DNA of 6,665 nt, taken from IMG/VR virus record IMGVR_UViG_2698536401_000007; one strand, 5' to 3'. The position numbers and the translations under genes are program-made. Below the pieces are notes generated by a model. The model had not been told where the DNA came from, did not search any database, and worked only from the letters and a program-made list of their open reading frames with translations. Below, one piece after another: positions 1 to 6,665 of this stretch. The DNA comes from a virus (lineage: Duplodnaviria > Heunggongvirae > Uroviricota > Caudoviricetes). Within the stretch, counting starts at the first letter, position 1. Each line of letters begins with the position of its first letter.

Positions 1-86
1 TGCTCCGTTGACGCTTACTGTTATTCAGCGATCTGTTCAAATGTTATTACCCGATCTCGATGGAAGTTATTGAGTGATCTCCTTTC

Positions 87-1460
87 ATGAAAATACGCAC
101 GTATGACCTTGCTAACGGGAAATACACTGCACAGGACGCCACCACAGCGCGAAAAGGTCTTGTCCAGCTCAGTAGCGTCACCAACAGCGATTCTGAAACG
201 CTTGCGGCAACGCCAAAGGCGGTAAAGGCCGCGTATGACCTTGCTAACGGGAAATACACTGCACAGGATGCCACCACGGCGCGAAAAGGGCTTGTCCAGC
301 TCAGTAGCGCCACTAACAGTGATTCTGAAACGCTGGCCGCAACACCAAAAGCGGTGAAGTCTGCCTATGACAATGCTGAAAAACGTCTTCAGAAAGATCA
401 GAACGGTGCGGATATTCCGGGAAAGGATACCTTCACGAAAAATATCGGTGCCTGTCGTGCTTATAGCGGCGCTTTGAGCACTGAAGCCGGAAACTGGACA
501 ACCGCTCAGTTTATTGAATGGCTGGATTCCCGTGGTGCATTTAATCATCCGTACTGGATGTGCAAAGGCTCCTGGTCATATGCAAATAACAAAATCATTA
601 CGGATACCGGATGTGGTGATATCCACCTGGCTGGTTGTGTCGTCGAGGTCATGGGAACTAAATCTGCAATCACTATCCGAGTGACCACGCCGACAACATC
701 AAGCGGTGGCGGTACAACCAGCGCACAATTCACTTACATTAATCATGGGGACGCCTACTCCCCCGGCTGGCGTCGTGACTGGAATCGTCAGGGCGACGCA
801 ATGACCGGAACGATTAATCAGGACGGCGGAAGCCAGAATACCTATATGTCTACGGCCTTATGTTCAGGCACCAGAGGCGGCAAAAAATATCTCAGAAAGT
901 TTCGTGGTGGAGAAGGAGACACTATCTGGCATGAAACAGTACAGGGTGGGGTAGTTCGCTGGGCGACTGGTAATACTGATGCTCAGGAAGAATTATCACT
1001 CAGCTCCGCTTATGGTCTCCGTTCAAGAGGTGAGATTACATCACTCAGTGCCAATGGTCTGCGCATTGCTTATGGCAATTATGGATTCTTTATCAGGAAT
1101 GATGGTGGTAGCACATATTTAATGCTGACGGCCTCTGGCGATAAATTTGGAACATGGAACGGTTTAAGACCGCTGACTATCAATAACGCCAATGGCGGAG
1201 TGTCAATGGGGCATGGCCTGAGTGTTACTGGACGTGTTACCCCATCAGATTACGGAAATTTTGATTCCCGCTATGTGAAAGATGTTCGCCTGGGTACGCG
1301 TGTTGTTCAGACCATGCAAAAAGGCGTGATGTATGAGAAATCAGGCCATGTAATTACAGGGCTTGGCATTGTCGGCGAAGTTGATGGCGATGATCCGGCA
1401 GTATTCAGACCTATACAAAAATACATTAATGGCACATGGTATAATGTCGCACAGGTGTAA
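87..1460 (+). CDS. H: Phage tail fibre protein, P2 gpH-like; 457 aa as called from ATG 87, true N-terminus uncertain
   Basis: Long ORF in the six-frame track. Two tandem 44-aa units YDLANGKYTAQDATTARKGLVQLSS(V/A)TNSDSETLAATPKAVK typical of phage tail fibre repeats. C-terminus ...GNFDSRYVKDVRLGTRVVQ...PIQKYINGTWYNVAQV matches my recollection of P2-type H proteins. A G-like chaperone follows 3 nt downstream. No strong SD before ATG 87, and the ATG overlaps a TGA (88..90) ending a frame that is open from the window start. Confidence 0.85.
   Translation: MKIRTYDLANGKYTAQDATTARKGLVQLSSVTNSDSETLAATPKAVKAAYDLANGKYTAQDATTARKGLVQLSSATNSDSETLAATPKAVKSAYDNAEKRLQKDQNGADIPGKDTFTKNIGACRAYSGALSTEAGNWTTAQFIEWLDSRGAFNHPYWMCKGSWSYANNKIITDTGCGDIHLAGCVVEVMGTKSAITIRVTTPTTSSGGGTTSAQFTYINHGDAYSPGWRRDWNRQGDAMTGTINQDGGSQNTYMSTALCSGTRGGKKYLRKFRGGEGDTIWHETVQGGVVRWATGNTDAQEELSLSSAYGLRSRGEITSLSANGLRIAYGNYGFFIRNDGGSTYLMLTASGDKFGTWNGLRPLTINNANGGVSMGHGLSVTGRVTPSDYGNFDSRYVKDVRLGTRVVQTMQKGVMYEKSGHVITGLGIVGEVDGDDPAVFRPIQKYINGTWYNVAQV
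102..365 (+). repeat. Tandem direct repeat, 2 x 132 bp (2 x 44 codons), inside the tail fibre gene; a third unit starts at 366 but diverges after YD
   Basis: Copy 1 (102..233) and copy 2 (234..365) both begin tatgaccttgctaacgggaaatacactgcacagga and are near-identical for the first ~70 bp, with more synonymous and a few non-synonymous changes later. Seen directly in the sequence. Confidence 0.9.
1453..1457 (+). promoter_or_regulatory. Shine-Dalgarno (AGGTG) for the G-like gene
   Basis: AGGTG lies 6 nt upstream of ATG 1464 and just before the H stop codon TAA (1458..1460). Confidence 0.6.
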
Positions 1461-1463
1461 TTT

Positions 1464-1991
1464 ATGCTGCATTTAAAAAATATTACTGCGGGTAATCCCA
1501 AAACTGTTGCCCAATATCAACTGACAAAAAATTTTGATGTTATCTGGTTATGGTCTGAAGACGGAAAAAACTGGTATGAGGAAGTAAGTAATTTTCAGGA
1601 AGACACGATAAAGATTGTTTACGACGAGAATAATATAATTGTCGGCATCACCAGAGATGCTTCAACGCTTAACCCTGAAGGTTTTAGCGTTGTCGAGGTT
1701 CCTGATATTACCGCCAACCGACGTGCGGATGACTCAGGTAAATGGATGTTTAAGGATGGTGCCGTGATTAAGCGGATTTATACGACAGACGAACAGCAGC
1801 AACTGGCAGAATCACAAAAGGCAACTTTACTTTCCGAAGCGGAATCCGTGATTTTGCCGCTGGAGCGCGCTGTCAGGCTGAATATGGCAACAGATGAGGA
1901 GCGCAGCCGACTGGAAGCATGGGAACGCTACAGCGTTCTGGTCAGTCGTGTGGATCCTGCAAATCCTGAATGGCCGGAAATGCCGCAATAA
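1464..1991 (+). CDS. G: Tail fibre assembly chaperone, P2 gpG-like, 175 aa
   Basis: ORF immediately downstream of the tail fibre gene, with an SD and the size expected for P2 G. The C-terminal segment ...[31 protein letters not shown] is characteristic of tail fibre assembly proteins as I recall them. Synteny H-G. Confidence 0.9.
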
Positions 1992-2269
1992 GTTGTATGA
2001 GCTTACATACCTATAGCACAGAGTAAAGCCTAATCTGACAGTCCGCTCTGTGCCAAAAAGGGACGTTGCTAGGAGCATTAACCTTTAGTCGAAATGTGGT
2101 GTGAAAAAGAAAAACAGAATAGTTGTGCCGGACTCAGAATCTTCTGGTCTCGCACATTTACCTTTCTTCAAGTCTATAGGGGAAAGATTTTCAATGACTA
2201 ATCAATCAGTTTATATAAAACTCGTGTTTAGATTTTGAGCATTATTTACGATAGGTTTCTCAGGATATT

Positions 2270-2287
2270 GGCCCCCAGTAAGGGGCC
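2270..2287. other. GC-rich hairpin (GGCCCC-cagtaa-GGGGCC) between convergent genes; possible transcription stop or RNA stabiliser, no U-tract
   Basis: Perfect 6-bp GC stem with a 6-nt loop, 20 bp beyond the stop of the minus-strand operon (2307). No T-run follows on either strand, so it is not a canonical intrinsic terminator. Confidence 0.25.
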
Positions 2288-2306
2288 GTCAACCGCTGAC
2301 TAGCAA

Positions 2307-2900
2307 TTAGTTAATGCGTGTCAGCTCGTAATGACCTACTGTTTTACGGCTTGTAAAGTAGTTCCCATTTAACACGTCTTTATCATTAAGATTTAGCTTG
2401 AGAATAGCTGTGCCCATGTAAGGATCTTGTGGACCAAAACCTGCCTTATGCTTGGGGGTTGTTAAAAAAACGTAGTAAAGTTCTGGTCGCCCCGTTTCGG
2501 TATCCTTTTTAGGCTTAGCCACCAATGTCTGAGAATCGGAGTCGTCAGCTTCGACATCCATTCCAATTTTAAGAAAATCCTGCTTTATAGTTGCTTGTGC
2601 GTGGGATGTGCCTTTTTTATCTTCCCATTCCCAATGAATAACCATATCCCAGGTTCCGTTCAAATCAGGGAAGAGTAGGTTATTTAGTTTAGGGAACCAT
2701 TGCCATAACTTTCGCCACCCAAAGAAAAAAATTGATATCACAATAGTATTAAGAATAAACAAACCTCCAGATGCAACTGATAGGACTGTCATGAAAGTTG
2801 TGTTTTCATCATATATGCCCAATAAAATCAGACCGCAGACAGTCGCATAGATAACGGAGATTCTTGAGATTATTTTCCATATTGGGAGAAGGTTTATCAT
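2307..2900 (-). CDS. Membrane protein, 197 aa: two N-terminal TM helices plus a beta-rich C-terminal domain; candidate membrane-disrupting effector
   Basis: ORF with a strong SD (GAGGAG; plus-strand ctcctc at 2906..2911) 5 nt upstream of the ATG. Its start overlaps the stop of the upstream gene as ATGA (2897..2900). Hydrophobic stretches at about residues 11-30 and 36-62, then a domain with alternating hydrophobic/polar patterning (TWDMVIHWEW, ELYYVFLTT, GTAILKLNL, GHYELTRI). Topology called by eye. Confidence 0.8.
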   Translation of the reverse strand: MINLLPIWKIISRISVIYATVCGLILLGIYDENTTFMTVLSVASGGLFILNTIVISIFFFGWRKLWQWFPKLNNLLFPDLNGTWDMVIHWEWEDKKGTSHAQATIKQDFLKIGMDVEADDSDSQTLVAKPKKDTETGRPELYYVFLTTPKHKAGFGPQDPYMGTAILKLNLNDKDVLNGNYFTSRKTVGHYELTRIN

Positions 2901-3334
2901 TGCAACTCCTCGTAATAAACTTCTTTACCAGCCTCAAATATAGAAAGACGACCTCTTTCGCCTACAATCCCTGTAAGTTTAATCTCGTCAATGCAAGAGC
3001 CATAAAGGGCAGCAACAAAACGTCCACCGACGAGTCTTGAACTGTCAAAACTGATGTTCTCTATGATTGGTGGTGAGAAATATTGTGCGGTATAAGTAAC
3101 ATTTCCTGCTTCATCTAAGATGTGAAAGCCATCATGGTATTCGCTATTTTTATTGGAAATTCTTGATAATAATTCTAATGTGGAATCATTCTGTATGGGG
3201 TCTATATTCCGAAGACTTGTGATGGGAAGGCTATCAGGGTTATTACATATAATAACGCCTATGCCAGAAAAATAAGCACGACTGGATTTTTTCCAAATAT
3301 CATATAGTAATTTATATAATTTCTCTTTTGTCAT
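2897..3334 (-). CDS. Small soluble protein, 145 aa, with DisA_N / diadenylate-cyclase (DAC)-like motif pattern; candidate nucleotide cyclase or nucleotide-binding partner
   Basis: ORF with an SD (AGGAAG; plus-strand cttcct at 3344..3349) 9 nt upstream of ATG 3334. Residues GIGVII (24-29), HDG (67-69), YFSPP (85-89), GGRFVAA (103-109) and TGIVGERGRLSIF (121-133) follow the order and spacing of the DAC consensus GALIV ... HDGA ... LPLS ... GTRHRAA ... VSEETG as I recall it. H and the second R of the canonical RHR are replaced (GRFV). Confidence 0.8.
   Translation of the reverse strand: MTKEKLYKLLYDIWKKSSRAYFSGIGVIICNNPDSLPITSLRNIDPIQNDSTLELLSRISNKNSEYHDGFHILDEAGNVTYTAQYFSPPIIENISFDSSRLVGGRFVAALYGSCIDEIKLTGIVGERGRLSIFEAGKEVYYEELQ
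2906..2911 (-). promoter_or_regulatory. Shine-Dalgarno (GAGGAG on the minus strand) for the 197-aa gene, inside the 3' end of the upstream gene
   Basis: The reverse complement of plus-strand ctcctc (2906..2911) is GAGGAG, 5 nt from the ATG at 2900. Consistent with translational coupling. Confidence 0.6.
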
Positions 3335-3865
3335 CGTTCATTTCTTCCTGATTTTAGTTATTAACTACAAAAAATCAAACAGTAATATCAATAAAGACGA
3401 TTATCCAATAATTTTCTTTGCAATGGAAGATTTGATAATCAAGTATAAAGATTTGTAGAAACAATGAAATGAGGTTTGACGGCAGGCCTCAGAGCTCGAT
3501 GCAGTTTTAGCTAACCTCAATAAAAGGAAGGTGTTCGTTTTTTGCTCAATACTACCCGTCAACTTTGTGCCGCAAGCAGAGGCTGCAAACCTCAGCATAT
3601 GTAAGTCAATGGGGGATGTTACTAATACATTCGACCGAAACACTAAAAATTTCATTACATTTTATTGAGATAGGCATTTGAAATGTTGCAAGAAATGTAT
3701 AAATAATGTATTTATTCAGAATAATCGGGGTTCTGTTCATGGACGAGCCCCAAAAAGCTGATTATACCTAGGCAAGCGTCTGGTTGCTGATAGCTATTAT
3801 GGCAAAAGAAAGGACTGTTTGTTGATATAAATGAATAAACATCCGATTTGGTTTAGGGAGTCTGG
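3335..3865. promoter_or_regulatory. Divergent intergenic control region (531 bp) expected to hold promoters for the minus-strand operon and the plus-strand 633-aa gene; contains imperfect inverted repeats
   Basis: Lies between divergently oriented start codons (3334 minus, 3866 plus). AT-rich ends with -35/-10-like hexamers, e.g. TTGCAA (3686..3691), 17 bp, TATTTA (3709..3714) on plus, and TTGATT-16-TAAAAT on minus within 3350..3385. None is validated. Central GC-richer segment has inverted repeat arms at 3471..3495 and 3572..3596. Confidence 0.4.
3855..3860 (+). promoter_or_regulatory. Shine-Dalgarno (AGGGAG) for the 633-aa gene
   Basis: AGGGAG lies 5 nt upstream of ATG 3866. Confidence 0.65.
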
Positions 3866-5767
3866 ATGAAGCTAAGAATAAGTAAAATATCATTAAAAAA
3901 CTTCAAAAGTTTTAAAAATATTACTATCGTTCCCAATCCTGATTTTAATATAATCATTGGGGAAAATAGTGCTGGGAAGTCAACTGTTTTTGAAGCTATT
4001 CATTTATGGGAGAAATGTTATAAAACATATATCCTTGCTTCAAGGAAAGGGTTTTATAAAGTTAAGAAGTCAACAAACAGATATGTTAATTATCAAGAGC
4101 TGGATTTTTTGCGAATCACAAGTGATGAGGATCTTTTTCACGACCCAAGAGATCCTAATCTAGGAAAATGCTCTGAAATAACTCTGACATTAAAAAATGA
4201 AGAGGAGAATGATAAGAGCTGGGAGCTTGGATTCAAAGTTACATGCCCAACATCAATCGAAAATGCTTTTTTCCGCGTTCAACCAATAGATGAAAATCAG
4301 TTTACTAATTTTGCGGAAGAATTTTGTAAAGGAGGGGCATTTTTGGATGAAGCTATCTTTATTTACCAGACGAGACCAGTAGCAGGAGTTCATCAATTTG
4401 AGCCGTACTATAATGAGGCTCAGATTAAGAGAAAAATACAAAAAGGTTATTCACACGAGGTTCTTAGAAACAAAATTATCTCTAAAAGAAAGTCAATATC
4501 AGATTTGGAATTAAGCATATCTGAAATACTTGAGAAAGATGTCAAGTTCAATATTCCTTCGGATGCAAGAAAAAATAAAGATGAATTCATTAAACTTGAT
4601 GTTTCAATCAATAGTTCAAAATATTATGATCTTCACCTTCAAGGAAGTGGTTTTCTTCAAATTGTGGAAATACTATCTACAGTTGAATTTATTGATGCTC
4701 CTCTCAAGTTACTGCTTGTTGACGAACCTGACTCACACATCCACACAAAGCTACAACATAATCTTCTCGCCCATTTAAAAAAAATAGATCACAATCAGTT
4801 TTTTATTATCAGTCATAACGATCAATTTGTGACCAGCGCAGGAGAAGGTGAAGTATTCTTCCTAAACGAAGACGCTAAATTAAGTGGTCACCTAGAAGCA
4901 ATCAACCCAAATAGTTTCGATATTATAAAAAACTCATTGGGGGGGGTAATTTTATCTCTCGAGAGACTTAATAATGCAAAACTAATCGCATTTGTTGAAG
5001 GTGAGGACGATGAAAAATATCTAAAGAAACTTAACCAAAAGATCAAAGAAATTACTAACCCAATTGGTTGTTTGAAAAATGTAGTTTTCTTTCCGTTACG
5101 AGGAAAAGATAATATTCTCCAAAAGGTTGAGTATAATAAGAGAACTTTAAATTCGATTCTAAATGGCAAATCGTGGTATGTTATTTTTGATCGGGATTTT
5201 TCTACAGACACTGTTGATCATTATCTTAAGGAAAATATTACTAAGAAACGGTTCACTCCATATAGTCATGTGGGGTATTGTATTGAGTCAGTGTTATTTT
5301 CGGATCTGAGTATTTTTAAAAAGTATTTGTATTCCTTGGCTCCATTTATTGCTGAAGACGAATTTTCAACACACATTGATACCTTAATTGATGAATTAAA
5401 GGATTCTGTCAATAATTTAACCTCCTCACTAAACAAAGAAATAGAGGCTAGATTCAATAGTCAAAAGAAAAACCGACCAGAATTTGCTAATCTTAATTTT
5501 GTGGATGTCGTTAGATCATGGTGCGAAGATGGAGTATTCAAACCTGAGCGAGTAATGTCAAAACCTCTTATCCAAAAGTTTGTTACAGATCTGGAAAATA
5601 AAATAGGTGTTTCTCTCTTCCTGCGAGAATCAAATGTAGATGAAGAAGTAGCATCAAAGTTATTATTTAAATACTTTGACTTCATTCAGACAATTGATGA
5701 TTTGTATCCATCATTTCGAGACTTGATGAAACAGCTAGATGTGCTGCCAAGAAATGAAGTTGAATAA
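3866..5767 (+). CDS. ABC/AAA15-type ATPase fused to a Toprim-like nuclease domain, 633 aa; OLD-family or fused PARIS (AriA-AriB)-like anti-phage candidate
   Basis: Walker A GENSAGKST (residues 32-40). Signature-like LQGSGF. Walker B with D- and H-loop LLLVDEPDSHIH (about 282-293). C-terminal FVEGEDDEKY (Glu about 378) and VIFDRDF (Asp about 442/444) match the Toprim E...DxD pattern of OLD/DUF4435 proteins. Good SD. Very AT-rich coding sequence. A roughly 160-aa C-terminal tail has no recognisable motif. Confidence 0.9.
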   Translation: MKLRISKISLKNFKSFKNITIVPNPDFNIIIGENSAGKSTVFEAIHLWEKCYKTYILASRKGFYKVKKSTNRYVNYQELDFLRITSDEDLFHDPRDPNLGKCSEITLTLKNEEENDKSWELGFKVTCPTSIENAFFRVQPIDENQFTNFAEEFCKGGAFLDEAIFIYQTRPVAGVHQFEPYYNEAQIKRKIQKGYSHEVLRNKIISKRKSISDLELSISEILEKDVKFNIPSDARKNKDEFIKLDVSINSSKYYDLHLQGSGFLQIVEILSTVEFIDAPLKLLLVDEPDSHIHTKLQHNLLAHLKKIDHNQFFIISHNDQFVTSAGEGEVFFLNEDAKLSGHLEAINPNSFDIIKNSLGGVILSLERLNNAKLIAFVEGEDDEKYLKKLNQKIKEITNPIGCLKNVVFFPLRGKDNILQKVEYNKRTLNSILNGKSWYVIFDRDFSTDTVDHYLKENITKKRFTPYSHVGYCIESVLFSDLSIFKKYLYSLAPFIAEDEFSTHIDTLIDELKDSVNNLTSSLNKEIEARFNSQKKNRPEFANLNFVDVVRSWCEDGVFKPERVMSKPLIQKFVTDLENKIGVSLFLRESNVDEEVASKLLFKYFDFIQTIDDLYPSFRDLMKQLDVLPRNEVE

Positions 5768-5960
5768 TATTATCGCGTTTCAAAATATAGAACGGTGGGT
5801 AAGGTAATGAATGACAAAATACACATTGAATCGCCACGAACCAAGCAATAAGCATATCAGCTCAGCCCTTATGGGCTGATGATCTGTTCCTCGCTCAAAG
5901 CAAGCTTTCAGATTTGATAACAAATTGTCAGTTGGAAACTGAGTGAGTACAAATCAAGGC

Positions 5961-5988
5961 AGGCGGGCTGATTGCCCGCCTTTTCTTT
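5961..5988 (+). terminator. Rho-independent terminator
   Basis: Stem AGGCGGGC (5961..5968), loop TGATT, stem GCCCGCCT (5974..5981), running into T-tract TTTTCTTT (5981..5988). About 190 bp downstream of the 633-aa gene stop, upstream of FI. Confidence 0.7.
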
Positions 5989-6073
5989 ATCTGTTGTTTC
6001 ATCCACTGACCAGTCAGGTCAAATAGCGTCTCATGCACTGCCCAACAGAAAATACCACTCACCCATTAACCAC

Positions 6074-6077
6074 GGAG
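6074..6077 (+). promoter_or_regulatory. Shine-Dalgarno (GGAG) for FI
   Basis: GGAG lies 8 nt upstream of ATG 6086. Confidence 0.6.
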
Positions 6078-6085
6078 TTAAACGG

Positions 6086-6665
6086 ATGAGTGACTATCAT
6101 CATGGCGTGCAGGTGCTGGAGATTAACGACGGCACCCGCGTCATTTCCACCGTATCCACCGCCATTGTCGGCATGGTCTGCACGGCCAGCGATGCGGATG
6201 CGGAAATCTTCCCCCTCAATAAACCGGTGCTGATTACCAATGTGCAGAGCGCAATTGCAAAGGCCGGTAAAAAAGGCACGCTGGCGGCGTCGCTGCAGGC
6301 CATCGCCGACCAGTCAAAACCGGTCACCGTTGTTGTGCGCGTGGAAGACGGCACCGGCGACGACGAGGAAACGAAACTTGCGCAGACCGTTTCCAATATC
6401 ATCGGCACCACCGACGAAAACGGTCAGTACACCGGACTGAAAGCCCTGCTGGCGGCGGAGTCAGTAACCGGTGTTAAACCGCGTATTCTCGGCGTGCCGG
6501 GACTGGACACCAAAGAGGTGGCTGTTGCATTGGCATCAGTCTGTCAGAAGCTGCGCGCTTTCGGATATATCAGCGCATGGGGCTGTAAGACCATTTCCGA
6601 GGTGAAAGCCTACCGCCAGAATTTCAGCCAGCGTGAACTGATGGTTATCTGGCCGGATTTCCTCG
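6086..6665 (+). CDS. FI: Phage tail sheath protein FI (P2 gpFI-like), 5' partial; first 193 codons, continues beyond the window
   Basis: Translation [83 protein letters not shown]... closely matches the N-terminus of P2 tail sheath FI as I recall it. The frame is open from ATG 6086 to the window end. GC-rich, unlike the cargo. Absent from the ORF track only because no stop is reached. Confidence 0.95.

What the first reader, a model, noticed from the sequence alone, without database searches (positions are those of the whole stretch)
2307..2900. Candidate membrane effector: two N-terminal TM helices followed by a small beta-rich domain
About 197 aa, with hydrophobic helices at roughly residues 11-30 and 36-62 and then a ~130-aa domain of beta-strand-like alternation. 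This is the size and layout of minimal beta-barrel membrane-disrupting effectors in cyclic-nucleotide defence systems (Cap15-like), where ligand binding drives oligomerisation and membrane permeabilisation. It is the downstream, translationally coupled partner of the DAC-like gene.
Basis: inference. Interest (0 to 1): 0.65.

Follow-up and report, generated by a model that had tools for sequence, protein, structure and literature searches.

The report
Prophage-borne PanE membrane effector (Panoptes-like)
This gene encodes a small inner-membrane "suicide" protein of the Cap15/2TM-beta family that pairs with a minimal cyclic-di-AMP-type synthase. Two preprints from August 2026 described this two-gene anti-phage guard system, so the gene is real and intact but belongs to a kind that is already published.

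Summary
The minus-strand ORF 2900..2307 encodes 197 aa with two N-terminal TM helices and an eight-stranded beta-barrel. It overlaps the stop of the upstream 145-aa gene by 4 bp (ATGA).

The partner is a diverged diadenylate-cyclase fold. It is a clear homologue of PDB 37jy, "Panoptoo PanS synthase" (E 1.6e-30).

In 40 of 40 related loci with room upstream, the effector follows a PanS gene. Its relatives that follow mCpol (Panoptes OptE) or CD-NTases (CBASS Cap15) form separate clades.

The locus is therefore a PanS–PanE system (Panoptoo/PanDA, two August 2026 preprints). In the tested homologues the synthase constitutively makes 3'3'-c-di-AMP or 3'3'-cUA. That nucleotide represses the effector, and phage nucleotide sponges relieve the repression and cause membrane permeabilisation.

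The implied ligand-activated logic is probably the reverse of what happens.

The local context has some novelty. The system lies in the Z-region of an E. coli P2-like prophage, next to a fused PARIS-like ATPase–DUF4435 gene. It is absent from 5,426 complete E. coli genomes.

The parts
2307..2900 (-). panE-like CDS, 197 aa (stop TAA at 2307-2309): S-2TM-beta / Cap15-family membrane effector
   Evidence: ORF. Pfam Cap15_CD_rec E 8.4e-20. PADLOC 2TM effector models. 119 homologous clusters. AF2 model with pLDDT 85.7.
2814..2888 (-). TM helix 1 (residues 5-29)
   Evidence: Hydropathy and AF2 helix 5-29.
2697..2795 (-). TM helix 2 and its extension (residues 36-68)
   Evidence: Hydropathy peak at 39-60 and AF2 helix 36-68.
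2316..2672 (-). Cytoplasmic eight-stranded beta-barrel, the predicted cyclic-dinucleotide receptor (residues 77-195)
2897..2900 (-). ATGA stop/start overlap that couples panS and panE
   Evidence: Read directly from the sequence. The same overlap is found in 25 of 40 related loci.
2906..2911 (-). GAGGAG Shine-Dalgarno sequence for panE, inside the 3' end of panS
   Evidence: Read directly from the sequence.
2897..3334 (-). panS-like CDS, 145 aa: minimal diadenylate-cyclase-fold synthase
   Evidence: phmmer against PDB 37jy 'Panoptoo PanS synthase' E 1.6e-30; family profile E 1.7e-46. Pfam DAC at 23.8 bits, below the cut-off of 27. AF2 pLDDT 94.3. The top 50 Foldseek hits are all DacM/CdaA/DacA/DisA.
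3122..3139 (-). Invariant YHDGFH motif of PanS (residues 66-71). It corresponds to the DGA catalytic motif of canonical DACs.
   Evidence: Invariant in the 35-sequence alignment A3 and shared with 37jy in the printed alignment. The equivalence to DGA is my inference from knowledge of the DAC family.
3020..3028 (-). GGR of the GGRFVAA motif of PanS (residues 103-105). G103 and R105 are invariant and G104 is at least 90% conserved. It corresponds to GTRHRAA in canonical DACs.
   Evidence: Alignment A3. 37jy has GGRYLAA.
3351..3378 (-). Candidate sigma-70 promoter for the panSE operon (TTGATT-16-TAAAAT)
   Evidence: Consensus scan only, and the number of sites in the region is no higher than in shuffled sequence. 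Weak evidence.
2000..2070 (+). Left boundary of the cargo island: matches the 'left inverted repeat' of the P2 Z-region
   Evidence: Megablast matches to AJ512681 and other P2-ECxx Z-region records. Annotation of AJ512681. GC content drops from about 50% to 31-41% across 2000-5900.

Best explanation
The gene is the effector (PanE) of a two-gene PanS-PanE guard system, called Panoptoo or PanDA in the preprints, carried as cargo in the Z-region of an E. coli P2-like prophage.

Proposed mechanism:
1. PanE inserts into the inner membrane through two N-terminal helices, with its Cap15-type beta-barrel in the cytoplasm.
2. PanS, a 145-aa protein that is only a DAC catalytic domain with no sensor domain, constitutively makes a 3'3' cyclic dinucleotide (c-di-AMP or cUMP-AMP).
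3. The barrel binds this nucleotide, which holds PanE in a non-oligomeric, harmless state.
4. An infecting phage that expresses a cyclic-nucleotide sponge or nuclease to disarm CBASS-type immunity drains the decoy nucleotide.
5. Apo-PanE oligomerises, permeabilises the inner membrane and aborts the infection, which protects the lysogen population.

Shown here: gene structure, membrane-plus-barrel architecture, Cap15 fold, DAC fold and PanS homology of the partner, strict PanS-PanE gene linkage, a separate effector clade, and the prophage context.

Inferred by homology to published experiments: constitutive synthesis, repression by the ligand, the sponge trigger and membrane killing.
For: Architecture and family of the effector.

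Partner: it is a homologue of the solved 'Panoptoo PanS synthase' 37jy and has a DAC fold. It is a bare 145-aa catalytic domain.

Linkage: a PanS-like ORF lies immediately upstream in 40 of 40 related loci that have room for one. The genes overlap or abut in 38 of these 40.

Clades: effectors that follow mCpol (5 loci) or CBASS cyclases (10 loci confirmed with PADLOC; an eleventh, L055, rests only on a sub-threshold Pfam SMODS match) fall in separate clades of an NJ tree. This protein sits inside the DAC-linked clade.

Mechanism in homologues: the abstracts of PMC13640738 and PMC13640721 report that PanS is constitutive, that 3'3'-cUA or 3'3'-c-di-AMP represses PanE, and that the Acb4 sponge activates membrane permeabilisation. 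The same logic was shown for the sister effector OptE/2TM-beta.

Independent support for a role guarding cyclic-nucleotide immunity: 17 of 40 PanS-linked loci carry a CD-NTase within 6 kb. In L007 and L038 the pair directly follows a complete CBASS operon.

Integrity: all 17 invariant PanE columns and all 21 invariant PanS columns are present in the window's proteins.
Against: No experiment exists on this allele.

Only the abstracts of the two preprints could be read, so I cannot tell how close the tested systems are to this one. The crystallised PanS is about 87% identical to the Ciceribacter homologue (L039). From the printed alignment it is less than half identical to this PanS; that identity was not computed (one search compared 37jy only with the other homologues).

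The polarity of regulation cannot be read from sequence or fold. Cap15 and OptE share the fold but respond in opposite directions.

PanS lacks the canonical DGA and RHR motifs (it has DGF and GRF), and Pfam DAC scores below its cut-off. These changes are family-wide and shared with the crystallised PanS.

No CBASS lies in the window, so what the system guards in this host is unknown.
Confidence: 0.8

Rival explanations
1. Classical CBASS-like positive signalling. The DAC-like enzyme is switched on by infection, and its dinucleotide activates the Cap15-like effector to oligomerise and permeabilise the membrane.
For: The barrel is a Cap15_CD_rec domain and superposes on Cap15, which is ligand-activated. 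PADLOC's best matches are CBASS 2TM effector models.
Against: The synthase is a bare catalytic domain with nowhere to sense infection. It is homologous to PanS, which is reported to be constitutive and to have a repressing product. The effector lies outside the CD-NTase-linked Cap15 clade. No CD-NTase is present in the window.
Confidence: 0.1
2. Primarily an addiction or stabilisation module (a nucleotide-antitoxin toxin-antitoxin pair) that keeps the Z-region cargo or the prophage in the lineage. Anti-phage activity would be incidental.
For: The toxin/antitoxin-like logic of Panoptes-type pairs is noted explicitly for mCpol-2TM-beta. The cargo persists in a decayed P2 remnant, L062.
Against: Homologous systems were shown to defend against phage and to respond specifically to sponge proteins. 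The frequent adjacency to CBASS points to a guard role. Retention in a single remnant is anecdotal.
Confidence: 0.06
3. A P2 lysis or holin-type accessory protein, or a lysogenic-conversion membrane protein unrelated to nucleotide signalling.
For: It is a small two-TM protein on a prophage. The Z-region ORFs of other P2 isolates are annotated as 'putative lysogenic conversion protein'.
Against: There are no holin matches in Pfam or PHROGs, only one PHROG of unknown function. Intact copies of the prophage already carry the P2 holin and lysis cassette. Homologues are mostly chromosomal, not in phage genomes (one search found none in 50,697 phage records), and are always linked to PanS.
Confidence: 0.02

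Closest known systems
PanE of the Panoptoo / PanDA system (PanS minimal DAC + PanE S-2TM-beta). Ragucci, Haley & Kranzusch 2026, PMC13640738; Nabhani et al. 2026, PMC13640721. PanS structure: PDB 37jy.
   Same: The two-gene operon is the same: a synthase of about 145 aa with a DAC fold, followed by an effector of about 197 aa with two TM helices and a beta-barrel. The partner hits 37jy at E 1.6e-30. The effector lies in the DAC-linked clade.
   Different: This allele sits in an E. coli P2-like prophage Z-region beside a PARIS-like gene. Neither preprint's indexed text contains 'prophage' or 'P2-like'. Its nucleotide product (c-di-AMP or cUA) and its trigger are untested. From the printed alignment, its PanS is less than half identical to the crystallised one (identity not computed).
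OptE / 2TM-beta of Panoptes (mCpol + S-2TM-beta), PMC12657218 and PMC12657230
   Same: Same effector architecture and fold. Same guard logic is expected: a constitutive decoy dinucleotide represses the effector and a phage sponge releases it. Both are frequently adjacent to CBASS.
   Different: The synthase is an unrelated fold (Cas10-palm mCpol making 2'3'-c-di-AMP, versus a DAC fold here). The window's partner has no mCpol match. mCpol-linked effectors form a separate clade with about 28-32% identity.
Cap15 of CBASS (Yersinia aleksiciae, PDB 7n34/7n35)
   Different: Cap15 is paired with a CD-NTase and is activated by its ligand. Here there is no CD-NTase, the effector clade is separate, and the ligand is expected to repress.

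Membership tests
S-2TM-beta / Cap15_CD_rec superfamily (Pfam PF18153) | Two N-terminal transmembrane helices fused to the receptor domain | tested here: met
   Hydropathy. AF2 helices 5-29 and 36-68.
S-2TM-beta / Cap15_CD_rec superfamily (Pfam PF18153) | C-terminal domain matches the Cap15 cyclic-dinucleotide receptor profile above the curated cut-off | tested here: met
   71.7 bits against a cut-off of 31.2, residues 77-195, profile positions 3-122 of 122. Family profile against 7n34 at E 1.5e-9.
S-2TM-beta / Cap15_CD_rec superfamily (Pfam PF18153) | Eight-stranded beta-barrel fold like the Cap15 crystal structure | tested here: met
Panoptoo/PanDA PanE | Encoded directly downstream of, and in an operon with, a minimal DAC-domain synthase homologous to PanS | tested here: met
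   ATGA overlap. Partner against PDB 37jy PanS at E 1.6e-30. DAC fold.
Panoptoo/PanDA PanE | Belongs to the effector lineage that co-occurs with PanS rather than with mCpol or CD-NTase | tested here: met
   PanS linkage in 40 of 40 loci. The NJ tree partitions cleanly by synthase type. Neighbour identities.
Panoptoo/PanDA PanE | The synthase constitutively produces 3'3'-c-di-AMP or 3'3'-cUA | not testable with these tools
   Reported for homologues. Here only the conserved motifs and the lack of a sensor domain can be seen.
Panoptoo/PanDA PanE | The dinucleotide represses the effector: the effector alone is toxic and is rescued by active synthase | not testable with these tools
   Reported for homologues. 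Requires expression experiments.
Panoptoo/PanDA PanE | Activated by phage nucleotide-sponge proteins (for example Acb4), giving membrane permeabilisation and defence | not testable with these tools
   Reported for homologues.
CBASS Cap15 | Operon partner is a CD-NTase (SMODS) cyclase | tested here: not met
   No CD-NTase or SMODS match to any ORF of the window. The partner has a DAC fold. Genuine CD-NTase-linked relatives form another clade.
Panoptes OptE | Operon partner is an mCpol (PF18182) synthase | tested here: not met
   The partner gives no mCpol hit at E <= 1. mCpol partners of distant relatives score 80-96 bits.
Phage holin | Match to a holin family, or a position in the lysis cassette | tested here: not met
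   No holin hit in Pfam or PHROGs. The P2 lysis cassette lies elsewhere in the intact prophage.

The most novel reading that the evidence does not exclude
The P2 Z-region cargo may be a dedicated cassette that senses phage counter-defences through two independent tripwires, each set off by a phage anti-defence protein rather than by the phage itself. PanS-PanE would fire when a cyclic-nucleotide sponge or nuclease appears. The adjacent fused ATPase-DUF4435 (PARIS-like) gene would fire when an Ocr-type anti-restriction protein appears. The two would have been co-selected on a temperate phage to exclude superinfecting phages that have already beaten the host's first-line immunity. A second untested possibility is that the enterobacterial PanS clade makes a nucleotide other than the two reported.
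Probability: 0.3. Interest if true: 0.5.

Novelty: new member of a known kind. Interest (0 to 1): 0.35.

Why it matters
This finding would have been a discovery a few months earlier. A DAC-fold enzyme, previously known only for housekeeping c-di-AMP signalling, is used here for immunity together with a Cap15-like killer that works in reverse. That is now published (two August 2026 preprints and PDB 37jy), so the main value is correct annotation.

- NCBI names these proteins 'diadenylate cyclase' and 'Cap15 family... domain-containing protein' or 'hypothetical'. PADLOC 2.0 would call the effector a CBASS 2TM effector with no cyclase.
- Reading it as CBASS predicts the wrong phenotype: the effector would be expected to be harmless alone.

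Three things remain of interest:
- An E. coli allele that travels on a P2-like prophage, which is directly usable in the standard coliphage model.
- Its pairing with a PARIS-like gene.
- The comparative result that S-2TM-beta effectors split into three clades that track three unrelated synthase folds. This offers a clean system for asking which residues set the sign of ligand control.

Tried and rejected
- **Single-sequence search of PanE against PDB sequences.** It found nothing meaningful. A family profile was needed to reach Cap15.
- **Reading the two preprints.** Look-ups by DOI and PubMed id failed. Only the abstracts are held under the PMC ids. The tested organisms, ligand-binding residues and any mention of this allele could therefore not be checked. 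Term counts in the indexed full text show 0 uses of 'prophage' or 'P2-like'.
- **Cap15 paper.** A search for the original Cap15 paper found nothing in the library.
- **Megablast and blastn of the cargo against 5,426 complete E. coli genomes.** Only the 72-bp Z-region repeat matched and the panSE region itself gave no hit. Megablast against the phage records likewise matched only that repeat.
- **tblastn of PanE.** No match in 50,697 phage records. One match in plasmids, in Rhizobium etli at 39% identity.
- **Rfam scan of the window.** Nothing.
- **Promoter and terminator scan.** Counts were no higher than in shuffled sequence, so the promoter call is weak.
- **Inverted-repeat search for a right-hand Z-region repeat.** Only short chance-level pairs were found.
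- **The 84-aa ORF at 3401-3655.** It has no credible family match and I treat it as spurious.
- **Holin or transporter-fragment reading.** Rejected.
- **mCpol identity of the partner.** Rejected.
- **P2 context in other species.** A tblastn search for tail genes near other species' panSE loci found none, so the P2 context is specific to the E. coli allele.

Full report
**The observation**

The window carries a 594-nt ORF on the minus strand, from ATG at 2900 to TAA at 2307-2309, encoding 197 aa.

- Hydropathy windows above 1.2 are confined to residues about 1-32 and 34-66.
- An AlphaFold2 model built on 56 homologues (mean pLDDT 85.7, pTM 0.76) gives helices 5-29 and 36-68, a short helix 71-75, and eight strands between 82 and 195.
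- Basic residues flank the cytoplasmic ends of both helices and acidic residues sit in the short loop. This places the barrel in the cytoplasm.
- The start codon overlaps the stop of the upstream 145-aa gene as ATGA (2897-2900), and a GAGGAG Shine-Dalgarno sequence sits 5 nt upstream.

**What the effector is**

- Pfam assigns residues 77-195 to Cap15_CD_rec (PF18153) at E 8.4e-20, 71.7 bits against a cut-off of 31.2, covering the whole profile.
- Seventeen PADLOC CBASS '2TM effector' models match, the best at 3e-31.
- A single-sequence search of PDB sequences finds nothing. A profile of the family hits Cap15 (7n34) at 1.5e-9 over the whole barrel.
- There is no holin or transporter match in Pfam, NCBIfam or PHROGs.

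**What the partner is**

- The 145-aa upstream protein scores below threshold on Pfam DAC (23.8 bits against 27). It is nevertheless a clear homologue of PDB 37jy, deposited as 'Panoptoo PanS synthase': E 1.6e-30 with the single sequence and 1.7e-46 with the family profile.
- Its model (pLDDT 94.3) retrieves only diadenylate cyclases (DacM, CdaA, DacA, DisA) among the top 50 Foldseek hits, with TM 0.6-0.69.
- The family keeps invariant FSGxG, YHDGFH, QYFSPP and AAxxGS motifs and a GGR motif (G103 and R105 invariant, G104 at least 90% conserved). These are diverged forms of the canonical DGA and GTRHRAA motifs and are shared with the crystallised PanS.
- The protein is a catalytic domain only. 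It has no room for a sensor.

**Linkage and phylogeny**

A scan of one genome per species returned 61 loci. HMM searches of their ORFs gave the following pattern.

- Every locus whose effector scores at least about 135 bits has a PanS-like ORF immediately upstream: 40 loci. The only exceptions are L020 and L027, where the effector lies at a contig edge.
- The spacing is a 4-bp overlap in 25 loci and zero in 9.
- The more distant effectors follow either an mCpol gene (5 loci, 80-96 bits on PF18182) or a CBASS cyclase (10 loci, PADLOC E down to 1e-136).
- A neighbour-joining tree splits the effectors into three clean clades that match the three synthase types. The window's protein sits in an enterobacterial branch of the DAC-linked clade.
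- An exhaustive HMMER search of 1.84 billion representatives finds 585 relatives at E <= 1e-3. Only 43 reach E <= 1e-30, so the DAC-linked lineage is small.

**Mechanism**

Two preprints of 11 August 2026 describe this pairing.

- Ragucci, Haley & Kranzusch (PMC13640738) name it Panoptoo. [quoted passage not shown] The system detects phage proteins that inhibit nucleotide signals.
- Nabhani et al. (PMC13640721) name it PanDA. 3'3'-c-di-AMP binds and represses PanE. The phage sponge Acb4 activates PanE and induces membrane permeability.
- This is the logic already shown for Panoptes. mCpol-made 2'3'-c-di-AMP prevents toxic oligomerisation of 2TM-beta/OptE, whereas Cap15, with the same fold, oligomerises when it binds its ligand.

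I therefore assign the window's gene as a PanE. I expect it to be toxic when unliganded and silenced by its partner's product.

Gene neighbourhoods give independent support for a role guarding cyclic-nucleotide immunity. Seventeen of the 40 PanS-linked loci carry a CD-NTase within 6 kb. In Psychrobacter (L007) and Pseudomonas (L038) the pair directly follows complete type I and type II CBASS operons.

The steps that remain inferred for this allele are constitutive synthesis, the identity of the nucleotide, repression, and the trigger.

**Context in the window**

- Positions 100-6665 are 100% identical to P2-like prophages in E. coli draft genomes.
- The exact PanE protein always lies between the tail-fibre assembly gene (Caudo_TAP) and the tail sheath gene, together with the same 633-aa gene.
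- Window 2000-2070 matches the 'left inverted repeat' of the P2 Z-region in the P2-ECxx records.
- GC content falls from 50-57% in the backbone to 31-41% in the cargo.
- This locus is different from the gpA-gpQ (old/tin) hotspot analysed by Rousset et al..
- The panSE DNA has no match in 5,426 complete RefSeq E. coli genomes, even with sensitive blastn. PanE has no tblastn match in 50,697 phage records.
- Relatives in other species are not in P2 contexts. In Klebsiella oxytoca the pair sits beside an IS630-type transposase, an HD-domain protein and an Mrr-like nuclease.

**Comparison and novelty**

The protein works like OptE and is a structural relative of Cap15. It fails the defining partner test for both: no mCpol and no CD-NTase. 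It meets every testable criterion for PanE.

It is a new member of a kind that has been known for only a few months. Two aspects go beyond what I could see in the literature. One is carriage in the prophage Z-region together with a PARIS-like gene. The other is the three-clade structure of S-2TM-beta effectors that follows three unrelated synthase folds.

**Verdict**

- Confidence in the PanE guard mechanism is 0.8.
- Interest is 0.35.

Noticed in passing
window 3866-5767 (+): A 633-aa protein with an N-terminal ABC/SMC-type ATPase (AAA_15 44.1 bits, AAA_21 40.4 bits) and a C-terminal DUF4435 (28.1 bits). It matches the PADLOC AriAB model at 4.5e-19. It meets the Pfam thresholds that Rousset et al. 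set for two-gene PARIS, so it is probably a single-gene fused PARIS, an anti-anti-restriction system. It always travels with panSE in the E. coli prophages. Both cargo systems would then be triggered by phage counter-defence proteins.
   Followed up: partly
window 2000-5900: The cargo occupies the P2 Z-region (Z/fun locus, between tail-fibre assembly gene G and sheath gene FI). This is not the gpA-gpQ old/tin hotspot surveyed for defence systems. The left inverted repeat is recognisable at 2000-2070, and GC content is 31-41% against 50-57% in the backbone. No matching right-hand repeat was found.
   Followed up: partly
window 1-99: The first 99 bases are not collinear with the intact prophages, where the tail-fibre gene encodes 696 aa. 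Bases 19-99 match a stretch near the start of L068 (positions 47-127), downstream of the tail-tube gene; by comparison with the gene spacing in the intact prophages I infer this is the tail-chaperone (gpE-type) gene. The tail-fibre ORF therefore starts artificially at 87 with 457 aa. This points to a rearranged or defective prophage copy, or to an assembly join.
   Followed up: partly
window 100-380: The tail-fibre gene has tandem copies of a unit of about 132 nt (44 aa), YDLANGKYTAQDATTARKGLVQLSS.TNSDSETLAATPKAVK.A. The self-matches at 84-90% identity are visible. These look like collar or fibre repeats, and they may be where the rearrangement at about position 100 occurred.
   Followed up: no
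L007 3918-6597; L038 1208-6594: In Psychrobacter maritimus and Pseudomonas sp. B22129, panS-panE directly follows a complete CBASS operon. L007 has cyclase + 2TM effector. L038 has 2TM effector + cyclase + E1-E2 + JAB. Overall, 17 of 40 PanS-linked loci have a CD-NTase within 6 kb.
   Followed up: yes
L062 6409-13937: A decayed P2 remnant retains Ogr, the 633-aa gene, panSE, gene G, a truncated tail-fibre gene, the repressor and the integrase. It has lost the tail and head genes. The cargo has outlived the phage.
   Followed up: no
window 3335-3865, including ORF 3401-3655 (-): A 530-bp AT-rich divergent intergenic region lies between panS and the 633-aa gene. Its 84-aa ORF has no credible homologue and the region has no Rfam match. 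It presumably holds both promoters, but the consensus scan was not above chance.
   Followed up: partly
NC_021909.1 604190-604774 (Rhizobium etli bv. mimosae Mim1 conjugative plasmid): This is the only plasmid-borne PanE-like gene in PLSDB, at 39% identity. It shows a second type of mobile carrier for the family.
   Followed up: no
L039 1320-1763 (Ciceribacter naphthalenivorans): This PanS is 87% identical to the crystallised PanS of PDB 37jy. The solved enzyme therefore comes from a close alphaproteobacterial relative, far from the enterobacterial allele in the window.
   Followed up: partly
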